A model generated the notes under the pieces. The model had not been told where the DNA came from. It saw only the letters and a list, made by a program, of their open reading frames with translations, and did not search any database. This document shows, piece by piece, positions 34,559-59,289 of a stretch of 64,000 nt of DNA (positions are counted from its first letter, which is position 1; the number at the start of each line of letters is the position of its first letter). A program made the translations under genes and the position numbers. Source of the DNA: the human T2T-CHM13v2.0 reference genome, Homo sapiens; the NCBI RefSeq assembly GCF_009914755.1, contig NC_060936.1; one strand, 5' to 3'.

Positions 34559-34931
34559 CTATAAAGGAGGAGACAAGAATAATTAGTCTTGTTTAAAAAC
34601 CATCCCCCCAGATTCTAGTTCTCAGATAAAAGTTAAAGCTGCCATTACCTTTGGTCTCATTGCAAGCTCCATCAGAACACAGTGGGTCATTTTCAATTGC
34701 ATAAAATGCAAAGAAGGCAAAAGGTCATCACGAATGGGTATTTTTCGATGTGATTCTTCATGGAAACCCTATTGCTTTAGCATCATTACTCTTTCAAGTA
34801 CCCTTTGTTGTAAGTTATATAAGGTAGAAAAACTGGGCCAGGCACGGTGGCTCACGCCTGTAATTCCAACACTTTGGGATGCCCAGGCAGGTGGATCACT
34901 TGAGCCCAGGAGTTTGAAACCAGCCTGGTCA

Positions 34932-35078
<147 letters not shown>

Positions 35079-36638
35079 CTACACACCAGCCTGGGCGACA
35101 GAGTAAAGCTGTCTCAAAAAAAAAAAAAAAAAAAAAAAAAAAATTAGAAGAAAAACTGAGATTTCTGATCACTACTTTTTAATCAATAAAAACAGAAAAT
35201 TATGACTAGTTTGGACATAAAATCCCTACTATTTTGTTATAACCTGTGCAAAGTGGAAATTTTGAGATTTCTGATTGTTTTCATCAGAAAAAAGTAGAAA
35301 TTTATTACTAATTTGTACATCATCATAGCCACTTTTAATAATGGCCTCAACTTTACCAACTCCATCATTTCCAGTTACAATATTAACAAGTCTCCTCCAT
35401 ATTGACAAAGCCCCTGAGTTCAAGAGACCAACTATATATTCTTCAATATGAGTTATTATTTGCTGGCAAATGTTTGCTGTAGTAGAGATCACAAAAAACA
35501 AAAGGGAAGGGGTGAGTTCTCACAGAGAAAGGAGGTTGGCTGAAGACTGATTAGGTTTACATGAAGTTGAGTGCTGCAGAGCCTAGAACTGTAGAAGAAA
35601 CCGGGAACATACTTTCTGACCCAACAATACTAGTACTTCAGACCTAATTTTCCTTAGAAATACAAATGTGCATAGAAAGGTGTGCACAAATACATTTCAC
35701 TCGGTAACATATGTAAAAGCAAATATAAAGAAACAACCTAAAATGTCCAACAGCAGTGGTGCATTTATATTCTGCAGCTGTTTAATGAACAAGATTGATC
35801 CACAGGCATTAGCTTGAACAGATCTCTTGAATATAAAACTGAATTTAAAATTTTTTTTTTTTTTTAAAAGAGGCAGGACTCACTAAGTGACCCAGGCTGG
35901 TCTTGAACTCCTGAGCTCAAATAATCCTCCAGCCTTGGGCCTCCCAAAGTGCTGAGATTACAGCCATGAGCCACTACACCTGGCCGAGTTTACATTTTTT
36001 AAAGTACAAAATAATACAATAATACTGTATATTTTCTCTATGAATATAAATACACACAAAAAGGTCCTAACACACAGCCAGTTTCACTGGGATACCCCAT
36101 AGGAAGGAAGAAAGGGAATCAGGACTAGAGGTCACAGTCCAGAGGCCTTATTCACAGTGTTTCAAATTTAGAAAGGGAGGAAAGAAAGCAGAGGAGCCTA
36201 ATGGAAACTGAATTGAAGAGATTTTTACCTTTAAAAGACAATTAGCCAAAACTATATGCATCAGGTATTTGGTAGTGCTCAGTAACTATATGAAACATGA
36301 CTTTAACAACATAAGGCCGATTATTGCTTTGTTTAATCCTTGCCATAATCCTATGAAGTAGGCATTATTATCATTTCCATTTACAGATAAAGAGATTGAA
36401 GCCTAGAGAGGTTAGGTAACTTTCCCAAGGTCAAAAGACAAGAACAGAAGCTAGGGCTTGAAAAATCCAGAGAGTATGGCCAAGTTAAGGATAACCTCTA
36501 GAACTCTGAAAACAAGAACTCTTGCTCATCATTCCAGGATGCAGACAGATCTTTTAACATAAACAACCACTTGATAGTCACAACAGGGCTATTGTGCCTA
36601 TCACCTTCATATCTAACAGTACTTCCCGTATACCATAA

Positions 36639-39114: not shown

Positions 39115-43231
<4,117 letters not shown>

Positions 43232-45480: not shown

Positions 45481-45985
45481 CTGAAAACAAAAAACATTTT
45501 AGTTTTATTCAGCTTTTGTTTCAATGCTATTTTAAGGAACACAACACACAAATAAAGAATAAGCAAATAAAAATTTAATTTAGAAAGCTATTTGTTTTTC
45601 ATTTTCCATAATGAACCAAACTCCAAAGGATAGACTATCCATTGTAAGTTCTTTAAAAAGCCATGCTGTTGCTCTATAGTCTTCAAAATATAAAAGGTAG
45701 CCTTAAAAATTATACATTCTAGTGTCTAAACACCAGCGAAGCCTTTTCAGATAGGCCATCAGCACAATAAGACTAAGACTCTAAGTGAATGATTCAGAGG
45801 ACTTATGCCATTATGGACTGAAAGACCAAAAAAGTACATTGTAGAAATGCATCTTCATAACAGATAATAAATTTTATTATCATAATCTTAATCATTTTCA
45901 GACATTCTTCACCTGGACAATAAAATATAAGACCGAGCCACGCTTGGTGGTGCACGCCAGTAGTCCCAGCTACTCAGGAGGCTGA

Positions 45986-46270
<285 letters not shown>

Positions 46271-48800: not shown

Positions 48801-50755
<1,955 letters not shown>

Positions 50756-53193: not shown

Positions 53194-53345
53194 ATATTTG
53201 CTTCAAGTAGAAGGTCTAACAGCATCCGTTCAGTACGGACTTGTGCAAAATGAAGAGAATTATTCAGCCTGTTCCTAAAAGCGATAAACTCTGGGATCTT
53301 CTCAAATGCACCATATTTGTAAGCTTGAATAATATATTCTGAGGT
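53194..53345 (-). CDS. NAA25: NAA25 coding exon (TSEYIIQAYKYGAFEKIPEFIAFRNRL...LLLEAN)
   Basis: AG/GT boundaries, 152 nt; contains the NatB MDM20-like AYKYGAFEKIPEF motif. Confidence 0.96.
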
Positions 53346-54384
53346 CTGAGAAGGAAAGACATCACCTTGGTATAAATAGTTCACAAGTCAGGCAATGTAA
53401 GCAAACCTTGCCAGCCAAAACAAAACACTCAAACTAAAATTAAGTTTTAAATCTAATCTTTAAAGGTCTTGGTCACCAAGTAGAATATTAGCTTTTTAAA
53501 ATGTTTTTCTTCCTTCTTATACTTTAGACAAATGTCTCCTTTACTAATATTACTAATTGTAATAACCAGCTTCTGCCACCATCACATAAGCCTTCTCTTG
53601 GCAGTCATGTCTTTCAATTCAATAGGAACTGAGGTTTTGTTTTGCCACATCAGTCAAAAATTTGGTTAGTGCCATTCTGGAAGGGATGTTACTCCATGTT
53701 TTTCTGCATCTAAGATAAACTGTGTTTCATACAAAGGTTCCAAAAGCACCAGAATAATAGAACCACCTGCCCCCCGCCCCCCCAAATAAAAACCACTCTC
53801 CTTCAGAAAAAGACAGGCTGCTCCTTGGTTTTGCTTATTTCTGAATACTGTATTAGAAACACAGGGCATATGAGCATTACGTCAGGATAGAAGTAAGACA
53901 CCAAACAAAAGACCTGTCAAAATTCATGTCATAATCTATTCTGAGGACAAAGACTTCAAGAACCAAGTTTCTTGTCCATCTACATTACGTAAGACCTCTG
54001 CTGGAAATTTCCTTAAACAAGTATGTGAAGGGAACATTCACCACATGTGCTTTAATTGTAGCTTAATACATATACAGAGATCAAACATTACAGAACAGAG
54101 GCAAGATAAAGAATTCTAAGCAGAAATTCTGGCACAATAGAAGAAAATCTCAGGGAAGAACATTTCATGGGTGTGGGTCTATGCCATCAGGATCAGAAGA
54201 CAGGAGATTACCCCTTTGGGCCAAGGAAACTATTATGCTCAAAGCTGATGTCTGCCCCCAAAAAAGATCCTTTCTAGAAAAAACAGTCTTTTTACACAGC
54301 CTCAGTTAATCAGCTCTGCCCCCATCTCCATTACGTCTGAATAATTTGCCCAGTAGGAAAATAGGCCAATAGTCAACAACATAC

Positions 54385-54513
54385 CCTCTGATATACAGCC
54401 TTGCAGGGTTCATTTCAGGCCGCGGGATTGCGCCACGGGCGCTAATTCAACTGCATTCGATGCGGCTTTTAAACCCCCATGGGACACCTCGGCGAGCTGT
54501 TTGCCTGCAGTAT
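54385..54513 (-). other. Candidate NAA25 poison (PTC-containing) cassette exon
   Basis: Pyrimidine tract ttttcttgtgtccgtccgtctttaatttctccag| and donor AGG|gtatgt; 129 nt; in-frame TAA (54469-71), TAG (54442-44), TGA (54415-17). Confidence 0.7.
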
Positions 54514-55463
54514 CTGGAGAAATTAAAGACGGACGGACACAAGAAAATTAAAAAGATTACTTGTGATCCTGCAGGTTTCAAGAAGGACTACCTGAAAAAG
54601 CTCGAGTATACCTTCTAGCTTGATTAAAGGACAGTGATACACCCTATCAAGAGGAGGCCAGGATACTCTAAACACATATGCCTATCCTATGGCCCCTTGG
54701 CTTAGAAAACACAGCAAGGTTTACTACTATTAGCCCTTGTAATAGGAACTTACAGCTGGGGAAAAAAAAACAGCTGGTTAGGAACACATGATTCAGTAAT
54801 TAATCAAAAAGAAAATATGACTTTAGTAATTCCAATCAAAGTTATAATTACAGTTCCAAAGTATGCTATGATTTAAGGAGGGAACCCAGCCTTACCAAGT
54901 GTAGAGGCAGTTTTAATTTCTAAGTGGTCCGTGGAACACCACTTTATTTAAAAAAAAAAAAAAAAAAGGCAATAGCTTTTCAAAGAGAAAAATAAGGGGC
55001 AACAAAGAGAGTATAGTCTTTAACAAACTAAGAAGGTAGTCACAGTTCTCTGGCTTATCTTTTTTAGATAGTCCTTCTGTAACACTGCAGTAAAGTACCA
55101 TTGCAGAGCTAGACAAGGGCCTGGGATGCAACCACTAGGACCAAGGCTGTGGAAGTAGTACTACGTGAAGAAACAACCCCCTACTGGAACTGCAGGCAAA
55201 ACTGAAAGCCACAGGCACTTTAAAGACTTTTGAATATCAAAGTATGTTGTCCGTACCTATTTTCTACTCATTTATGCACCAATGAGGCTATTTAGATCCC
55301 GAATGGATTCCTGAAATGAACCCTGGTCACTGTAAAAATTAGTGAAATATATGGACATAAAACCCCTGAATAATGACCTTTGTGAATACCTAGAGATTAT
55401 ATTTTCTTTTATTTACTTTTTTTTTTTTTTGAGACAGAGTCTCACTCTGTCATCCAAGAGTGA

Positions 55464-55595
<132 letters not shown>

Positions 55596-58459
55596 TAAAA
55601 TAGAGATTTTAAAGGGAAATTTTTAAGAAGTAAAAACACGTAAGTGACTTTTAAAGATATGAAAATCTAGTGCTTATTTTCATATTTTTAAAAATCTATT
55701 CCAAAGTAAGATGACAACAGAAAATAACCTTTCTAGAAAGAAAATCCCTATGCAGACCTTCCAAATACAACTTTCAATCCCATAGCACAAAACATTACTA
55801 AGCAAAACACTAGATTTTCCATTTAAGTAAAAGTGTCCTGTCAAAGAGCTAGGTGGGAATTGAAATGCATCAGTCACCCAAGGAAAAAGCATCCGGGGAT
55901 CCCAAAAACTACCAAGAATAAAAGATGCATAGTATAGAGCTCTGGATTTGAAGAGAGATATTTCTGATACTCTAAGCACAAGGTTGAACACACACAGTAA
56001 GACACTACAATCATAATCTTTCTTAGCCTTAGATTTCTTTAGGAAACAGTTCACACCACAGTCTCTATCTGGCACTCAACATTAAGGTCAAGCTACATGT
56101 TCCTAGCTGTACCATATTTTTCTTTTTTGGTGGGGGGACAGAGTCTCTCTCGTCACCCAGGCTGGAGTATAATGGTACAATCAGCTCACTGCAACCTCCA
56201 CCTCCCGGGTCAAGCAATTCTCCTGCCTCAGCCTGCCGAGTAGCTGGGATTACAGGCACCTACCACCATGCCTGGCTAATTTTTGTATTTTTAGTAGAGA
56301 TGGGGTTTCACCACGTTGGCCAGGCTGGTCTTGAACTCCTGACCTCAGGTGATCCACCCACCTCGGCCTCCCAGTGCTTGGATTACAAGCGTGAGCCACT
56401 GTGCCCAGCCTGTACTGTATTTTTCTTTTGCCTCTAGGACTCTTCAAGATTATCTCCTGTCAGCAGATTTAATAAGCTCTATCTTCTTAGCGGTAATCAA
56501 AATATATTTCAAGTGTCCTAGTCTCTGATCAATAAAATGCTATAATTTTATCAGGTTCAACATCACATACATTCAGATGAATTAGTCACTTTTGCCACAC
56601 ACAACCATCAGCAAAACATAAAACAAAGATACAAAAAAAACTCTGAGGATGACACATCCCCTCAAATTGCTCCTAGGGGTCTCCTTTGCCTATATTGCAA
56701 CACTTTTGTAATTTTATTTTTAGATTTTCTTTCAAAACAACTCTTCAGACACAATATTTGTGGGAAAAAATTAAAGCCTAATTCTGATGTATATAAAGTA
56801 ATGTGTCTTTATTGACCACATCTTCATGAGTAATACAGTTCTTCTAGAATGCTGCATGATTGAAAGCTAGAGGAAAACCAGCCACCGGGCTGGAATTAAT
56901 CCCTGATTTACTCCCACTACCTCAAAGCTATTTGAGAAACAAACCTTTGAAAAGGAATCTTCAGTAAATCAAATGTTTCTTTCATCTCTCTTATAAATAC
57001 AGAAATGAGGCCATAAATAATGAGATGAGGAAACCAATCCTTTTGATTTTTTTTTTGAGTTAGTGAAACCTCTTGAAAACAGGAGGGCAAGTACAGATAC
57101 TTGAACACACAATGAAAATTCATAGGTTTATAGCTCATCCATGCTAGGTTTTAGAAACCCAACATCCTAGAGATGACCTTCTGACCTCTAAGCCAGGCCA
57201 GCACACCTTCTGAGTAACATGCTCAGATGCTGATACTCATTTTCCTCTCTCCCTGATCAGATGCTGTGCCACAAAATGAGGTCTGAACGGAGATACCAAT
57301 CACTGCAGAGGTTAAGGGGGCCACTTTGGGGAGGGGATACAGGACTAAGAACCAACTAATGGTACACAGCTCATTATCTAAGCACAAGAGGCTGCTTTCC
57401 ACCTGCTTAGAGCTGTCCTTTGCTACTCCAGCCCTCTAGGCCATTCCCTAAAACTTGTCAGAATGTAATTATCATAAACTGAGAACAAACCTATATCCCA
57501 TGTTCAGAAATGCTTCTATTTAATACAATACACCCTTAAAGAATTAGATGGAAGATAGATTAGTCATCCTGTTACAGTAAAACAAAAGGGTTTAAAAAAA
57601 ATCCTCACGAGTGTTTGCCAAGAAGAACCCCAGAAACTAGCTTCCTTGCTAGTTCCTTAATTGCTGGTAGACCATGAGAATGGAAAGCTATGGGCAGATA
57701 GCTGGCACAGCCAACTTCAGGCGATGAGGCTTAGAAGTCTGTGAAAACCAAGTAGGCAGTGACCACCCTGGAGACATTCCTTTTCTTCACATTCATTGTT
57801 GGGCAGTTTTTTATAATTGGTCAACTGAGTACAGACCGTATGGTTTTCCTACAAAAACCTCGGCTTAACCAACAAGTAGAGCCCAAGTCTGCTTGCAGTG
57901 AAAAATATGGTGCAAATCCCATCCTTTCATTATGGCACAGAGAAGCTCTATTTATTGCTACTTTAAAAAACATATTATTCACCTAGGTTTCTCGGAATGC
58001 CTTTTAATTTTCTAAGAAAATACAAGTACATTCACCTTTGGCAAAGAGCACAATGGACATACATTTCAGAGTTAAATAAAAGTAACAGAGAGCAGCTGCT
58101 ATTGCAGGATGTTACACGGCATCCCAGGCTATGAACGCTTATGGACTGTTTCTTATACCCTTGGAAAAGTCTCTTAGAGATTAAAAGCCAGGTCTAAGAG
58201 GACTAACACTTCCTAGTCAGTAAATACCAGTTTTTAAATGCAACTTTCCAAGGATTCTATTAAACACGCCCATTCTAACAAACACAAATAACTCTCTACC
58301 TCTCCCTACCAGCCTTGGACAGTAAGCTTTGGTCTAAGGGCACTTGCTAGTTCAGCATGGTGCACCTTAACATGTGTACTTGTGACATGTGGTGACGTGC
58401 TCCTCAATAGTGTGCAGTCAGCAGACAAGATCACAGTTAAAAAATAGTTTTTCACTTAC

Positions 58460-58559
58460 ATCTTTCTGGTTGGAGTGAAAAAACCTGAGTGCGAAGTTAC
58501 AGGATTGGGACGCAGCAGCATACTGACCTAGAGATTCAGCATATCGGGTCAAAAGATAA
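58460..58559 (-). CDS. NAA25: NAA25 coding exon (YLLTRYAESLGQYAAASQSCNFALRFFHSNQKD)
   Basis: AG/GT boundaries, 100 nt, phase consistent with neighbours, ends phase 0. Confidence 0.96.
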
Positions 58560-59289
58560 CTAGATCAGAAGGAAAGAAGGAAAAAAAAAGACATGTTATA
58601 CTTACTTACCTAGCTCAAGTAACAAATATTACGCTTCAAATTACTTGGCAAAAAAATAGCTAGGCATAAGAAAACACTAAAACATACTCCCACAGAAATG
58701 ATCTAATTCACCAGTTAAAATTTAAAAAAAAAAAAAAAAAAAAGCCAAAAGTTAACTCAGTTTTGTGGGAGACCTAAAGTTCTGTAACTAGGCTTTCTTA
58801 CACTCTGATGATTAATGACACATAAAAGTTCTAACAGAACATAATGCTGTCTTCCTAAAACAGCACCACAAACAGAGAAAATGCCATTAAGTGATACTAG
58901 CATAATAATAAAGAGTAGTCTAAATACAAGTTCAAAATACAAATTCAAACTTTGTTGAGGTCAATAAATAAATTACATGTGTCAACTTCAACTGCAAAGC
59001 GGAAATGAACACTTCAAAATAATGTGTGCTAAGAATAAGGGTTCAAAGTATATAGGTGTTTGCTATCTCTGGGGAAAACTCTCTTACATTTCTAAATTGT
59101 GCAAATTTTCAAATTACCACAAAATGCTGGGAGATATAAAAATCTTTCTGGTTTGCAATGGATCATAACAGGTTATTATTTAATCAGAAAGGCTTAATGT
59201 CACAATCAACTTTAAAATCTAAGTTAGAGTCCTGTGTACCCCACACTGGTATAGCTGGCTGCTCATTATTCAGAGTATATACTACCAAC

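What the first reader, a model, noticed from the sequence alone, without database searches (positions are those of the whole stretch)
54352..55334. Crossing helices that could hide or expose the poison exon's 5' splice site (two-state switch or pseudoknot)
Seen in sequence: 55234-55250 (atatcaaagtatgttgt) pairs in the RNA with 54376-54394, about 17 bp with a 2-nt bulge, straddling the AGG|GUAUGU donor. Next, 55256-55268 (cctattttctact) pairs with 54352-54365, 13 bp with one bulge. This ~30-bp set crosses the ~27-bp set 54394-54428/55296-55334, so the two cannot nest. A small hairpin (55267-72/55281-86) lies between the two upstream strands. Inference: one state blocks U1 binding (exon skipped, full NAA25), the other leaves the donor free (exon included, decay). 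During transcription the donor-free set can form first. What would flip the switch is unknown.
Basis: partly seen in the sequence, partly recalled or inferred. Interest (0 to 1): 0.9.

Follow-up and report, generated by a model that had tools for sequence, protein, structure and literature searches.

The report
Long-range RNA helices enclosing NAA25 poison exon
The stop-codon-carrying "poison" exon of the human NAA25 gene lies in one arm of a long, single-copy inverted repeat within its own intron, plus one extra strong crossing helix, so the pre-mRNA can probably fold over the exon and its splice sites, but whether this works as a switch is unproven.

Summary

- **Set B** (55296-55334 with 54394-54428) has a perfect 16-bp core and a duplex energy of -44 kcal/mol. 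It is far beyond chance: 0 of 300 energy shuffles and 0 of 1000 alignment shuffles reach it.
- **Set A** covers the donor. It is AU-rich and weak at -31 kcal/mol, and 45 of 300 shuffles match its energy. Its Watson-Crick complementarity is unusual (0-19 of 1000 shuffles), and the two strands are each other's best partners across 5.4 kb.
Both sets sit outside further helices, 55059-55090 with 54569-54600 and 55018-55038 with 54609-54629. Set A is the outer end of a roughly 265-300-nt imperfect palindrome that contains the whole poison exon. Set B is an extra, off-diagonal helix.
- **Folding.** The B state is about 13 kcal/mol better than the A state, forms first and persists. An equilibrium two-state switch is therefore not supported.

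My best reading is a long-range structure of the kind shown for BRD2 and BRD3 that sequesters the exon and keeps inclusion low. Conservation, covariation and in-vivo pairing could not be tested here. I rate interest as moderate.

The parts
55296..55334 (-). B_up: upstream-intron strand of set B (core 55310-55325).
   Evidence: (I6, 16 nt, 100%).
55267..55286 (-). Small hairpin between B_up and A_up: 6-bp stem, 8-nt loop. It overlaps the first 2 nt of A2.
   Evidence: -5.6 kcal/mol. Present in the MFE folds.
55256..55268 (-). A2_up: pairs with the intron just downstream of the donor.
   Evidence: 13 pairs, 1-nt bulge, -12.2 kcal/mol.
55234..55251 (-). A1_up: antisense to the poison-exon donor.
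   Evidence: 13 consecutive pairs, 55251-55239 with 54375-54387; -15.9 kcal/mol.
55189..55200 (-). I21_up: perfect 12-nt complement of exon nucleotides 3-14.
   Evidence: I21; -19.6 kcal/mol; 5 of 500 shuffles. Pair probability is only about 0.05.
55059..55090 (-). I1_up: strong inner helix shared by the A and B states.
   Evidence: I1, 32 nt, 81%; score 37 against shuffles 20.2+-2.2, max 31; pair probability about 1; 0 of 500 and 0 of 100 shuffles.
55008..55038 (-). I7_up and I8_up: innermost helices of the upstream arm.
   Evidence: I7; MFE; 1 of 500 by alignment score; 26 of 100 by energy.
54609..54645 (-). I7_dn and I8_dn: partners of 55008-55038.
54569..54600 (-). I1_dn: partner of 55059-55090, lying 56-87 nt upstream of the poison-exon acceptor.
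54514..54545 (-). Polypyrimidine tract and 3' splice site of the poison exon. In the nested MFE it pairs with A_up (55265-55249 with 54518-54534).
   Evidence: (-17.5 kcal/mol). This pairing is at chance level (153 of 500 and 93 of 100 shuffles).
54385..54513 (-). Poison exon: 129 nt, phase 0, 3 in-frame stops, with a CpG-rich core at 54429-54499.
   Evidence: hub annotation; PMC8501971 lists a NAA25 'exon 17' as an NMD/poison exon.
54394..54428 (-). B_dn: exon nucleotides 86-120, ending 9 nt before the donor.
54376..54394 (-). A1_dn: last 10 nt of the exon plus the donor GUAUGUUGU.
54352..54365 (-). A2_dn: downstream-intron strand of A2.

Best explanation
The intron upstream of the NAA25 poison exon carries a single-copy, imperfect inverted copy of the exon and its flanks.

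Anatomy:
- The upstream arm is about 55005-55268 and the exon arm about 54352-54650.
- Along this palindrome the helices run from the outside in: A2, A1, the 12-mer 55189-55200 with 54500-54511, I1, I7 and I8.
- One extra off-diagonal helix, B, pairs 55296-55334 with exon nucleotides 86-120.

Mechanism:
- As pre-mRNA these strands can zip up over about 0.9 kb.
- The inner helices I1, I7 and I8 form first and bring the outer strands together.
- B then forms as soon as the 3' part of the exon is transcribed.
- This folds the exon body and the region before its 3' splice site into a long-range duplex.
- The AU-rich A helices can additionally cover the donor, either as a bent pseudoknot or whenever B is open.
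- The net effect I infer is repression of poison-exon inclusion, which favours productive NAA25 mRNA.
- The strength of that repression would depend on how much time the RNA has to fold before the spliceosome commits, so on Pol II speed, helicases and dsRNA-binding proteins.

Shown here: the complementarities, their non-random nature, their single-copy status, their order and the in-silico energetics.

Inferred: that they pair in vivo, and that pairing lowers inclusion.
For: - B and I1 are far beyond chance. I7 is beyond chance by alignment score only.
- The arms align globally on the A diagonal with score 29.0 against shuffles of 8.4+-2.7 (0 of 300, z 7.6). 183 of 229 aligned columns are identical, under lenient gap costs.
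- The stretch between A and I1 is still significant on its own (3 of 300).
- The MFE of 54330-55350 (-289.5 kcal/mol) and of 54345-55340 (-285.7, z -2.92, 0 of 20 shuffles as good) contains B, I1, I7 and I8, with pair probabilities of about 1 for B and I1.
- All three main pairs are reciprocal best partners across both flanking introns.
- Only the poison-exon donor, of the 11 NAA25 donors in the window, has such a complement.
- The region is single copy in the human genome, so it is not an ordinary repeat pair.
- The sense strand gives equal or better duplexes than the antisense strand: A -31.3 against -24.0, I7 -19.9 against -15.6, B -44.2 against -42.5 kcal/mol.
- The exon core keeps 9 CpG with an observed/expected ratio of 1.03, against at most 0.57 in neighbouring 100-nt bins. 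I read this as a hint of constraint.
- Precedent: long-range complementary pairs repress the BRD2 exon 3b and BRD3 exon 5b poison exons, shown with antisense oligonucleotides and compensatory mutants (PMC10789245, abstract and section 17). Genome-wide, such pairs suppress looped-out exons and obstruct weak splice sites (PMC8052449, passages).
Against: - No cross-species data could be obtained, so conservation and covariation are unknown.
- There is no in-vivo structure or splicing evidence.
- Both DNA strands fold better than shuffles to the same degree (z -2.92 sense, -3.18 antisense). That is what a DNA-level palindrome gives without any selection on the RNA.
- The strand asymmetry is small, and I1 shows none (-35.0 against -35.4 kcal/mol).
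- By energy, A is no better than shuffles or random sites.
- By duplex energy I7 is no better than shuffles (26 of 100).
- The pairing of A_up with the polypyrimidine tract in the MFE is at chance level.
- MFE folding of a 1-kb nascent RNA is a crude model.
- The PCCR paper reports false discovery rates of 10% to over 50% for its predictions, even with conservation required.
Confidence: 0.45

Rival explanations
1. Neutral relic. An old inverted duplication, possibly followed by a template-switch event that made B, left a decaying palindrome around the exon. The RNA may or may not fold, and splicing of the poison exon is set by other signals.
For: - The complementarity is colinear over about 265-300 nt with indels, like a decayed duplication.
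- Weak similarity continues into the apical region (4 of 300) and outside A (6 of 300).
- Both strands fold equally well relative to shuffles.
- I1 shows no strand preference.
Against: - A perfect 16-bp core flanked by unalignable loops, and B being off the diagonal, do not fit uniform decay.
- B_up is not a detectable duplicate of the colinear arm segment (180 of 1000).
- Helices sit precisely on the donor, the exon ends and the region before the 3' splice site.
- There is a modest sense-strand advantage through G-U pairs.
Confidence: 0.3
2. One reading: a true two-state switch. Set A blocks U1 binding, so the exon is skipped. Set B excludes A and leaves the donor free, so the exon is included and the mRNA decays. 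An unknown signal sets the balance.
For: - A and B cross.
- B_dn is transcribed first.
- Blocking B_up in silico lets A form in 28 of 30 pairs, and blocking A_up leaves the donor with only a weak local hairpin.
- With B formed, donor nucleotides 54388-54384 are partly unpaired, with unpaired probabilities of 0.23-0.88.
Against: - The B state is 12.9 kcal/mol better and forms first, so A would not be populated without an active factor.
- A is weak and AU-rich, with energy matched by 45 of 300 shuffles.
- B buries 35 of the 129 exon nucleotides and belongs to a fold that also covers the 3' splice-site region, so it is unlikely to be a pro-inclusion state.
- The two sets share only nucleotide 54394. 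They are therefore exclusive only by topology and might coexist.
Confidence: 0.12
3. Set A alone is a chance match, and only B and the inner helices are real features.
For: Energy tests fail for A: 45 of 300 shuffles and 75 of 350 real positions are as good. A's boundaries were chosen post hoc.
Against: - 0 of 1000 shuffles reach A's score under each of two lenient scoring schemes, and 19 of 1000 under strict scoring.
- A_up and A_dn are reciprocal best partners over 5.4 kb, with A_up at -32.2 against the next best -24.8 kcal/mol.
- A is colinear with I1 and I7 on the palindrome diagonal.
- No constitutive donor scores above 25.5, against 38.5 for A.
Confidence: 0.1
4. The intron-to-intron parts of A (A2 and the intronic half of A1) bracket the exon and promote its back-splicing into a small circular RNA, rather than controlling linear splicing.
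For: - Geometry only: the complementary strands lie in both flanking introns.
- A circRNA of the BRD2 poison exon is reported next to its complementary pair (PMC10789245, section 17).
Against: - No circRNA evidence was seen for NAA25 here.
- At 129 nt the exon is short for a single-exon circle.
- A is weak.
Confidence: 0.03

Closest known systems
[quoted passage not shown] 2024, PMC10789245; abstract and section 17 read)
   Same: Long-range base pairing within the pre-mRNA sits around a poison exon. Disrupting it raises inclusion in BRD2 and BRD3, and inclusion is sensitive to elongation speed. This is the same gene-dosage logic of unproductive splicing.
   Different: [quoted passage not shown] In NAA25 the strongest helix (B) and the 12-mer pair with the exon itself, and A1 covers the donor.
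- NAA25 has at least five colinear helices plus one crossing helix, not one pair.
- Conservation and function are shown for BRD2 and BRD3 and untested for NAA25.
Competing long-range RNA structures in ATE1 (Kalinina et al., PMC7797038; search listing and start of the abstract only), and the Dscam-type docking/selector competition (recalled)
   Same: Alternative long-range helices whose choice would decide splicing.
   Different: In ATE1, R1 and R4 compete for the same strand, R3. In NAA25, A and B use four separate strands that share only nucleotide 54394. Any exclusion is therefore topological (crossing) rather than competition for a strand.
Genome-wide PCCR catalogue (Kalmykova et al. 2021, PMC8052449; passages and section 6 read)
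   Same: By its criteria (at least 10 nt, dG at most -15 kcal/mol, at most 10 kb apart), A1 (-15.9) is group I, the B core (-27.1) is group III, and I1 (-35.0) and whole B (-44.2) are group IV.
   Different: - That catalogue removes annotated constitutive and alternative exons except their outer 10 nt (section 6). If this exon was annotated at the time, B_dn and the exon 12-mer were outside its search space.
- It also requires phastCons conservation, which is unknown here.
[quoted passage not shown] The full catalogue files were not visible to me.
Local donor-masking hairpins (MAPT exon 10, SMN2 exon 7 TSL2) and the SMN2 long-distance ISTL1 interaction (recalled from general knowledge, no call)
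   Same: Base pairing over positions -3 to +6 of a donor lowers U1 binding and exon inclusion.
   Different: Apart from ISTL1, those are short local hairpins. In NAA25 the masking strand lies about 850 nt upstream, in the preceding intron.

Membership tests
PCCR-type long-range RNA structure regulating a cassette or poison exon | Two complementary stretches of at least 10 nt with dG of at most -15 kcal/mol, within 10 kb in one pre-mRNA. | tested here: met
   Energies in kcal/mol: A1 -15.9, A -31.3, B -44.2; I1 -35.0, I7 -19.9. The spread is about 0.4-0.9 kb.
PCCR-type long-range RNA structure regulating a cassette or poison exon | Both arms evolutionarily conserved, with compensatory substitutions. 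| not testable with these tools
   No vertebrate genome other than the window's own is held (one search states that it has no relatives here).
PCCR-type long-range RNA structure regulating a cassette or poison exon | Disrupting the pairing changes exon inclusion, and compensatory mutation restores it. | not testable with these tools
   This is an experiment. The only thing in print found on the exon is its listing as an NMD/poison exon that falls on EBV infection (PMC8501971).
Competing (mutually exclusive) RNA structures of the ATE1/Dscam type | The alternative helices compete for one shared strand. | tested here: not met
   A uses 55234-55268 with 54352-54394. B uses 55296-55334 with 54394-54428. 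Only nucleotide 54394 is shared.
H-type pseudoknot | Strand order S1a-S2a-S1b-S2b, with both stems formed at once. | tested here: inconclusive
   - The order is met by coordinates.
- A rough sum gives -294.7 kcal/mol before any pseudoknot penalty, against -289.5 for the nested fold.
- The 27-nt linker 55269-55295 is too short to span the two stems if they stack coaxially (about 77 bp), so a bent arrangement would be needed. This is my own geometric inference.
Inverted pair of interspersed repeats (inverted Alus, MITE-like DNA transposon) | The arms belong to a multi-copy family. | tested here: not met
   - Genome searches with 121, 1011 and 191 nt found only the locus itself, plus one 31-nt simple match.
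- Rfam matches (SRP/Alu-like) lie only at 55429-55586, outside the arms.
- Caveat: the search skips very common words, and no RepeatMasker or Dfam annotation was available.
Structured small RNA gene (tRNA, snoRNA, miRNA) inside the exon or the arms | Match to a curated RNA family. | tested here: not met
   There was no Rfam match at E of at most 1 within 54000-55428, and ARAGORN found 0 genes.

The most novel reading that the evidence does not exclude
The NAA25 poison exon is governed by a topological RNA switch. A common inner stem (I1, I7) holds two crossing outer helices in register. B would be the kinetically first, strong clamp on the exon body. A would be a U1-mimicking antisense strand that threads onto the donor. 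A helicase, a dsRNA-binding protein or Pol II speed would decide whether the donor is exposed, tuning the dosage of the NatB auxiliary subunit. Competition by crossing rather than by a shared strand would be a mode of splicing control not described for mammalian genes in the papers I saw.
Probability: 0.12. Interest if true: 0.75.

Novelty: new member of a known kind. Interest (0 to 1): 0.45.

Why it matters
NAA25 is the auxiliary subunit of NatB, one of the enzymes that acetylate the N-termini of proteins. Its poison exon is a plausible dosage valve. In the searched literature I found nothing on how that exon is controlled.

If the helices pair in vivo, this would add an unusually elaborate example to the small set of poison exons shown to be governed by long-range RNA structure. 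It would have multiple helices, pair intron to exon, and include a crossing element.

It would also give concrete antisense-oligonucleotide targets for raising or lowering NAA25 expression.

It further illustrates a blind spot. Catalogues that remove annotated alternative exons from their search space cannot find helices such as B.

Tried and rejected
- **Repeat-element origin.** Three searches of the window's own genome found only the locus itself. I saw no target-site duplication by eye next to the outer ends of B. window.fa carries no soft-masking.
- **Known RNA family or tRNA.** None was found in the arms or the exon.
- **B_up as a tandem duplicate of the colinear arm segment.** Not supported (180 of 1000). 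Three other direct-repeat tests in the same call were also not significant (70, 308 and 314 of 1000).
- **A_up pairing with the polypyrimidine tract as a meaningful feature.** It is at chance level (153 of 500 and 93 of 100). The exon core 54429-54489 has no significant upstream complement either (97 of 500).
- **Literature.** Six searches combined NAA25 with poison exon, long-range RNA structure, nonsense-mediated plus cassette exon, ultraconserved, alternative splicing plus NMD, and RNA structure. They gave one relevant paper, PMC8501971. A broad search returned nothing that mentions NAA25.
- **Supplements.** PMC8052449 has 3 files held as text, with no NAA25. Supplements of PMC10573301, which carries RIC-seq contacts, could not be opened and may bear on whether the arms contact each other in cells.
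Full report
**Setting**

NAA25 lies on the - strand, so its RNA reads from high to low window coordinates.

- The alternative exon 54513..54385 is 129 nt and starts in phase 0.
- It carries three in-frame stops, the first being UAA at 54471-54469. It is therefore a genuine poison exon.
- Its donor is AGG|GUAUGU at 54385|54384.
- One paper lists a NAA25 "exon 17" as an NMD/poison exon whose inclusion falls when primary B cells are infected with EBV (PMC8501971, passages). The match to this exon is my inference from exon order.

**Check of the observation**

| Helix | Coordinates | Pairs | dG (kcal/mol) |
|---|---|---|---|
| A1 | 55250-55234 with 54376-54394 | 17, 2-nt bulge | -15.9 |
| A2 | 55268-55256 with 54352-54365 | 13, 1-nt bulge | -12.2 |
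| A as a whole | | | -31.3 |
| B | 55334-55296 with 54394-54428 | 30 | -44.2 |
| B core | 55325-55310 with 54404-54419 | 16, perfect | -27.1 |
| Small hairpin | 55286-55281 with 55267-55272 | 6 | -5.6 |

The order along the RNA is B_up, A_up, B_dn, A_dn, so the two sets cross.

**Chance**

*Set B.* It is clearly non-random.
- 0 of 300 dinucleotide shuffles reach its energy against the 1-kb upstream stretch (z -6.0).
- 0 of 1000 shuffles reach its alignment score under any of three scoring schemes.

*Set A.* The answer is mixed.
- By energy it is ordinary. 45 of 300 shuffles are as good, and so are 75 of 350 random real positions.
- By Watson-Crick alignment score it is unusual. 19 of 1000 shuffles reach it with strict gaps and 0 of 1000 with each of two lenient schemes. 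The boundaries were taken from the finding, which favours it.

*Nulls from real sequence.*
- Scores as high as A occur at 112 of 3000 positions and as high as B at 74 of 3000. All fall in about six clusters that look like inverted repeat-element pairs, or within this structure itself.
- Over both flanking introns (53200-58600), each strand's best duplex partner is its proposed mate.
- Among the 11 NAA25 donors in the window, only the poison-exon donor has such an upstream complement by alignment score. By duplex energy one constitutive donor (-34.3) exceeds A (-31.8 kcal/mol).

The repeat finder also reports three further inverted pairs:
- 55059-55090 with 54569-54600 (I1, 32 nt, 81%);
- 55018-55038 with 54609-54629 (I7);
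- a perfect 12-mer, 55189-55200 with 54500-54511 (I21).

Their significance:
- I1 is highly significant: score 37 against shuffles of 20.2+-2.2 with a maximum of 31, and 0 of 500 and 0 of 100 shuffles.
- I7 is significant by alignment score (1 of 500) but not by energy (26 of 100). I21 is marginal (5 of 500).

Global alignment of the exon arm with the reverse complement of the upstream arm is best on the diagonal that contains A.
- 54352-54650 against 55005-55268 scores 29.0 against 8.4+-2.7 (0 of 300, z 7.6), with 183 of 229 aligned columns identical under lenient gap costs.
- The stretch between A and I1 remains significant on its own (3 of 300). The stretch between B and I1 does not (55 of 300).

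So A is the outer end of a long imperfect palindrome that contains the entire poison exon with both splice sites. B is an additional helix off that diagonal.

- I could not show that B_up arose as a local duplicate (180 of 1000), so its origin is unexplained.
- The CpG-rich exon core (9 CpG, observed/expected 1.03) has no upstream counterpart (97 of 500).

**Not a known repeat or RNA gene**

- Genome searches with 121, 1011 and 191 nt found only this locus, plus one 31-nt simple match.
- Rfam matches are confined to an Alu-like element at 55429-55586, and none reaches its gathering score.
- No tRNA was found.

**Folding**

- The MFE of 54330-55350 is -289.5 kcal/mol. It is one large nested long-range fold made of B, a pairing of A_up with the polypyrimidine tract (55265-55249 with 54518-54534), I1, I7 and I8. 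B and I1 have pair probabilities of about 1.
- The independent tool gives the same architecture: -285.7 kcal/mol, z -2.92, 0 of 20 shuffles as good.
- The opposite strand folds equally well relative to its shuffles (z -3.18), as expected for a palindrome at the DNA level.
- The sense strand has only a modest advantage through G-U pairs.
- Forcing A costs 12.9 kcal/mol (-276.6). Blocking B_up gives -267.0, and A then forms in 28 of 30 pairs.
- In growing-transcript folds B appears once 54394 is transcribed and stays. A never appears.
- A crude sum for B and A together as a pseudoknot is -294.7 kcal/mol before any penalty.
- The 27-nt linker cannot span two coaxially stacked stems of about 77 bp, so coexistence would need a bent geometry. 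This is my inference.
- The pairing of A_up with the polypyrimidine tract is at chance level and should not be over-read.

**Mechanism**

I commit to a repressive long-range structure. The inner helices bring the arms together. B clamps exon nucleotides 86-120 as soon as they emerge, and A can add onto the donor. Together they would hold poison-exon inclusion low, with the outcome sensitive to folding time. I put this at 0.45.

This follows the tested behaviour of BRD2 exon 3b and BRD3 exon 5b. There, antisense oligonucleotides and disruptive mutations raise inclusion and compensatory mutations restore it (PMC10789245, abstract and section 17). It also follows the genome-wide tendency of such pairs to suppress looped-out exons and to obstruct weak splice sites (PMC8052449, passages).

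| Rival reading | Probability |
|---|---|
| Neutral palindrome relic | 0.30 |
| A alone is chance | 0.10 |
| circRNA promotion | 0.03 |

**Comparison with what is known**

- It works like a PCCR-type structure. By that catalogue's energy classes A1 is group I, the B core group III, and I1 and whole B group IV (section 6).
- Membership cannot be settled, because conservation, covariation and functional tests were out of reach.
- It is not an ATE1-type competition, since A and B share no strand beyond one nucleotide (for ATE1, listing only).
- The PCCR catalogue removes annotated alternative exons except their outer 10 nt. Helices such as B may therefore have been invisible to it.
- NAA25 was absent from the 3 supplementary files I could search.
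- Six literature searches found no description of RNA structure at this exon.

**Verdict**

The finding is a credible, untested new member of a known kind with an unusual crossing element, and I rate interest at 0.45. The decisive test is cross-species conservation and covariation, followed by antisense oligonucleotides or compensatory mutants.

Noticed in passing
window 55416-55586 (- strand) and 54950-54974: An Alu-like element lies just 5' (in the RNA) of B_up. It shows as a Metazoa_SRP match of 51.3 bits, below the gathering score of 70. Its A-run 55416-55430 is complementary to the U-run 54950-54974 in the apical loop, giving 14-15 A-U pairs. That pairing would cross B and I1.
   Followed up: partly
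window 54429-54499: The core of the poison exon holds 9 CpG (observed/expected 1.03) amid CpG-poor intron (at most 0.57 in neighbouring 100-nt bins). It folds locally and has no complement in the upstream arm. This hints at constraint on the exon for reasons other than the long-range pairing.
   Followed up: partly
window ~34860-35130, 39165-39765, 40310-40870, 42955-43215, 45950-46000, 48815-49125: These are clusters of positions in NAA25 introns with strong upstream inverted complements. They probably reflect inverted repeat-element pairs, since several lie in or next to stretches masked as repeats. One cluster is close to MIR3657 (42501-42617).
   Followed up: no
window 55168-55184 and 54200-54216: A 17-pair uninterrupted helix of which 8 pairs are G-U. 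It is the longest run in the helix scan but is probably a compositional accident.
   Followed up: no
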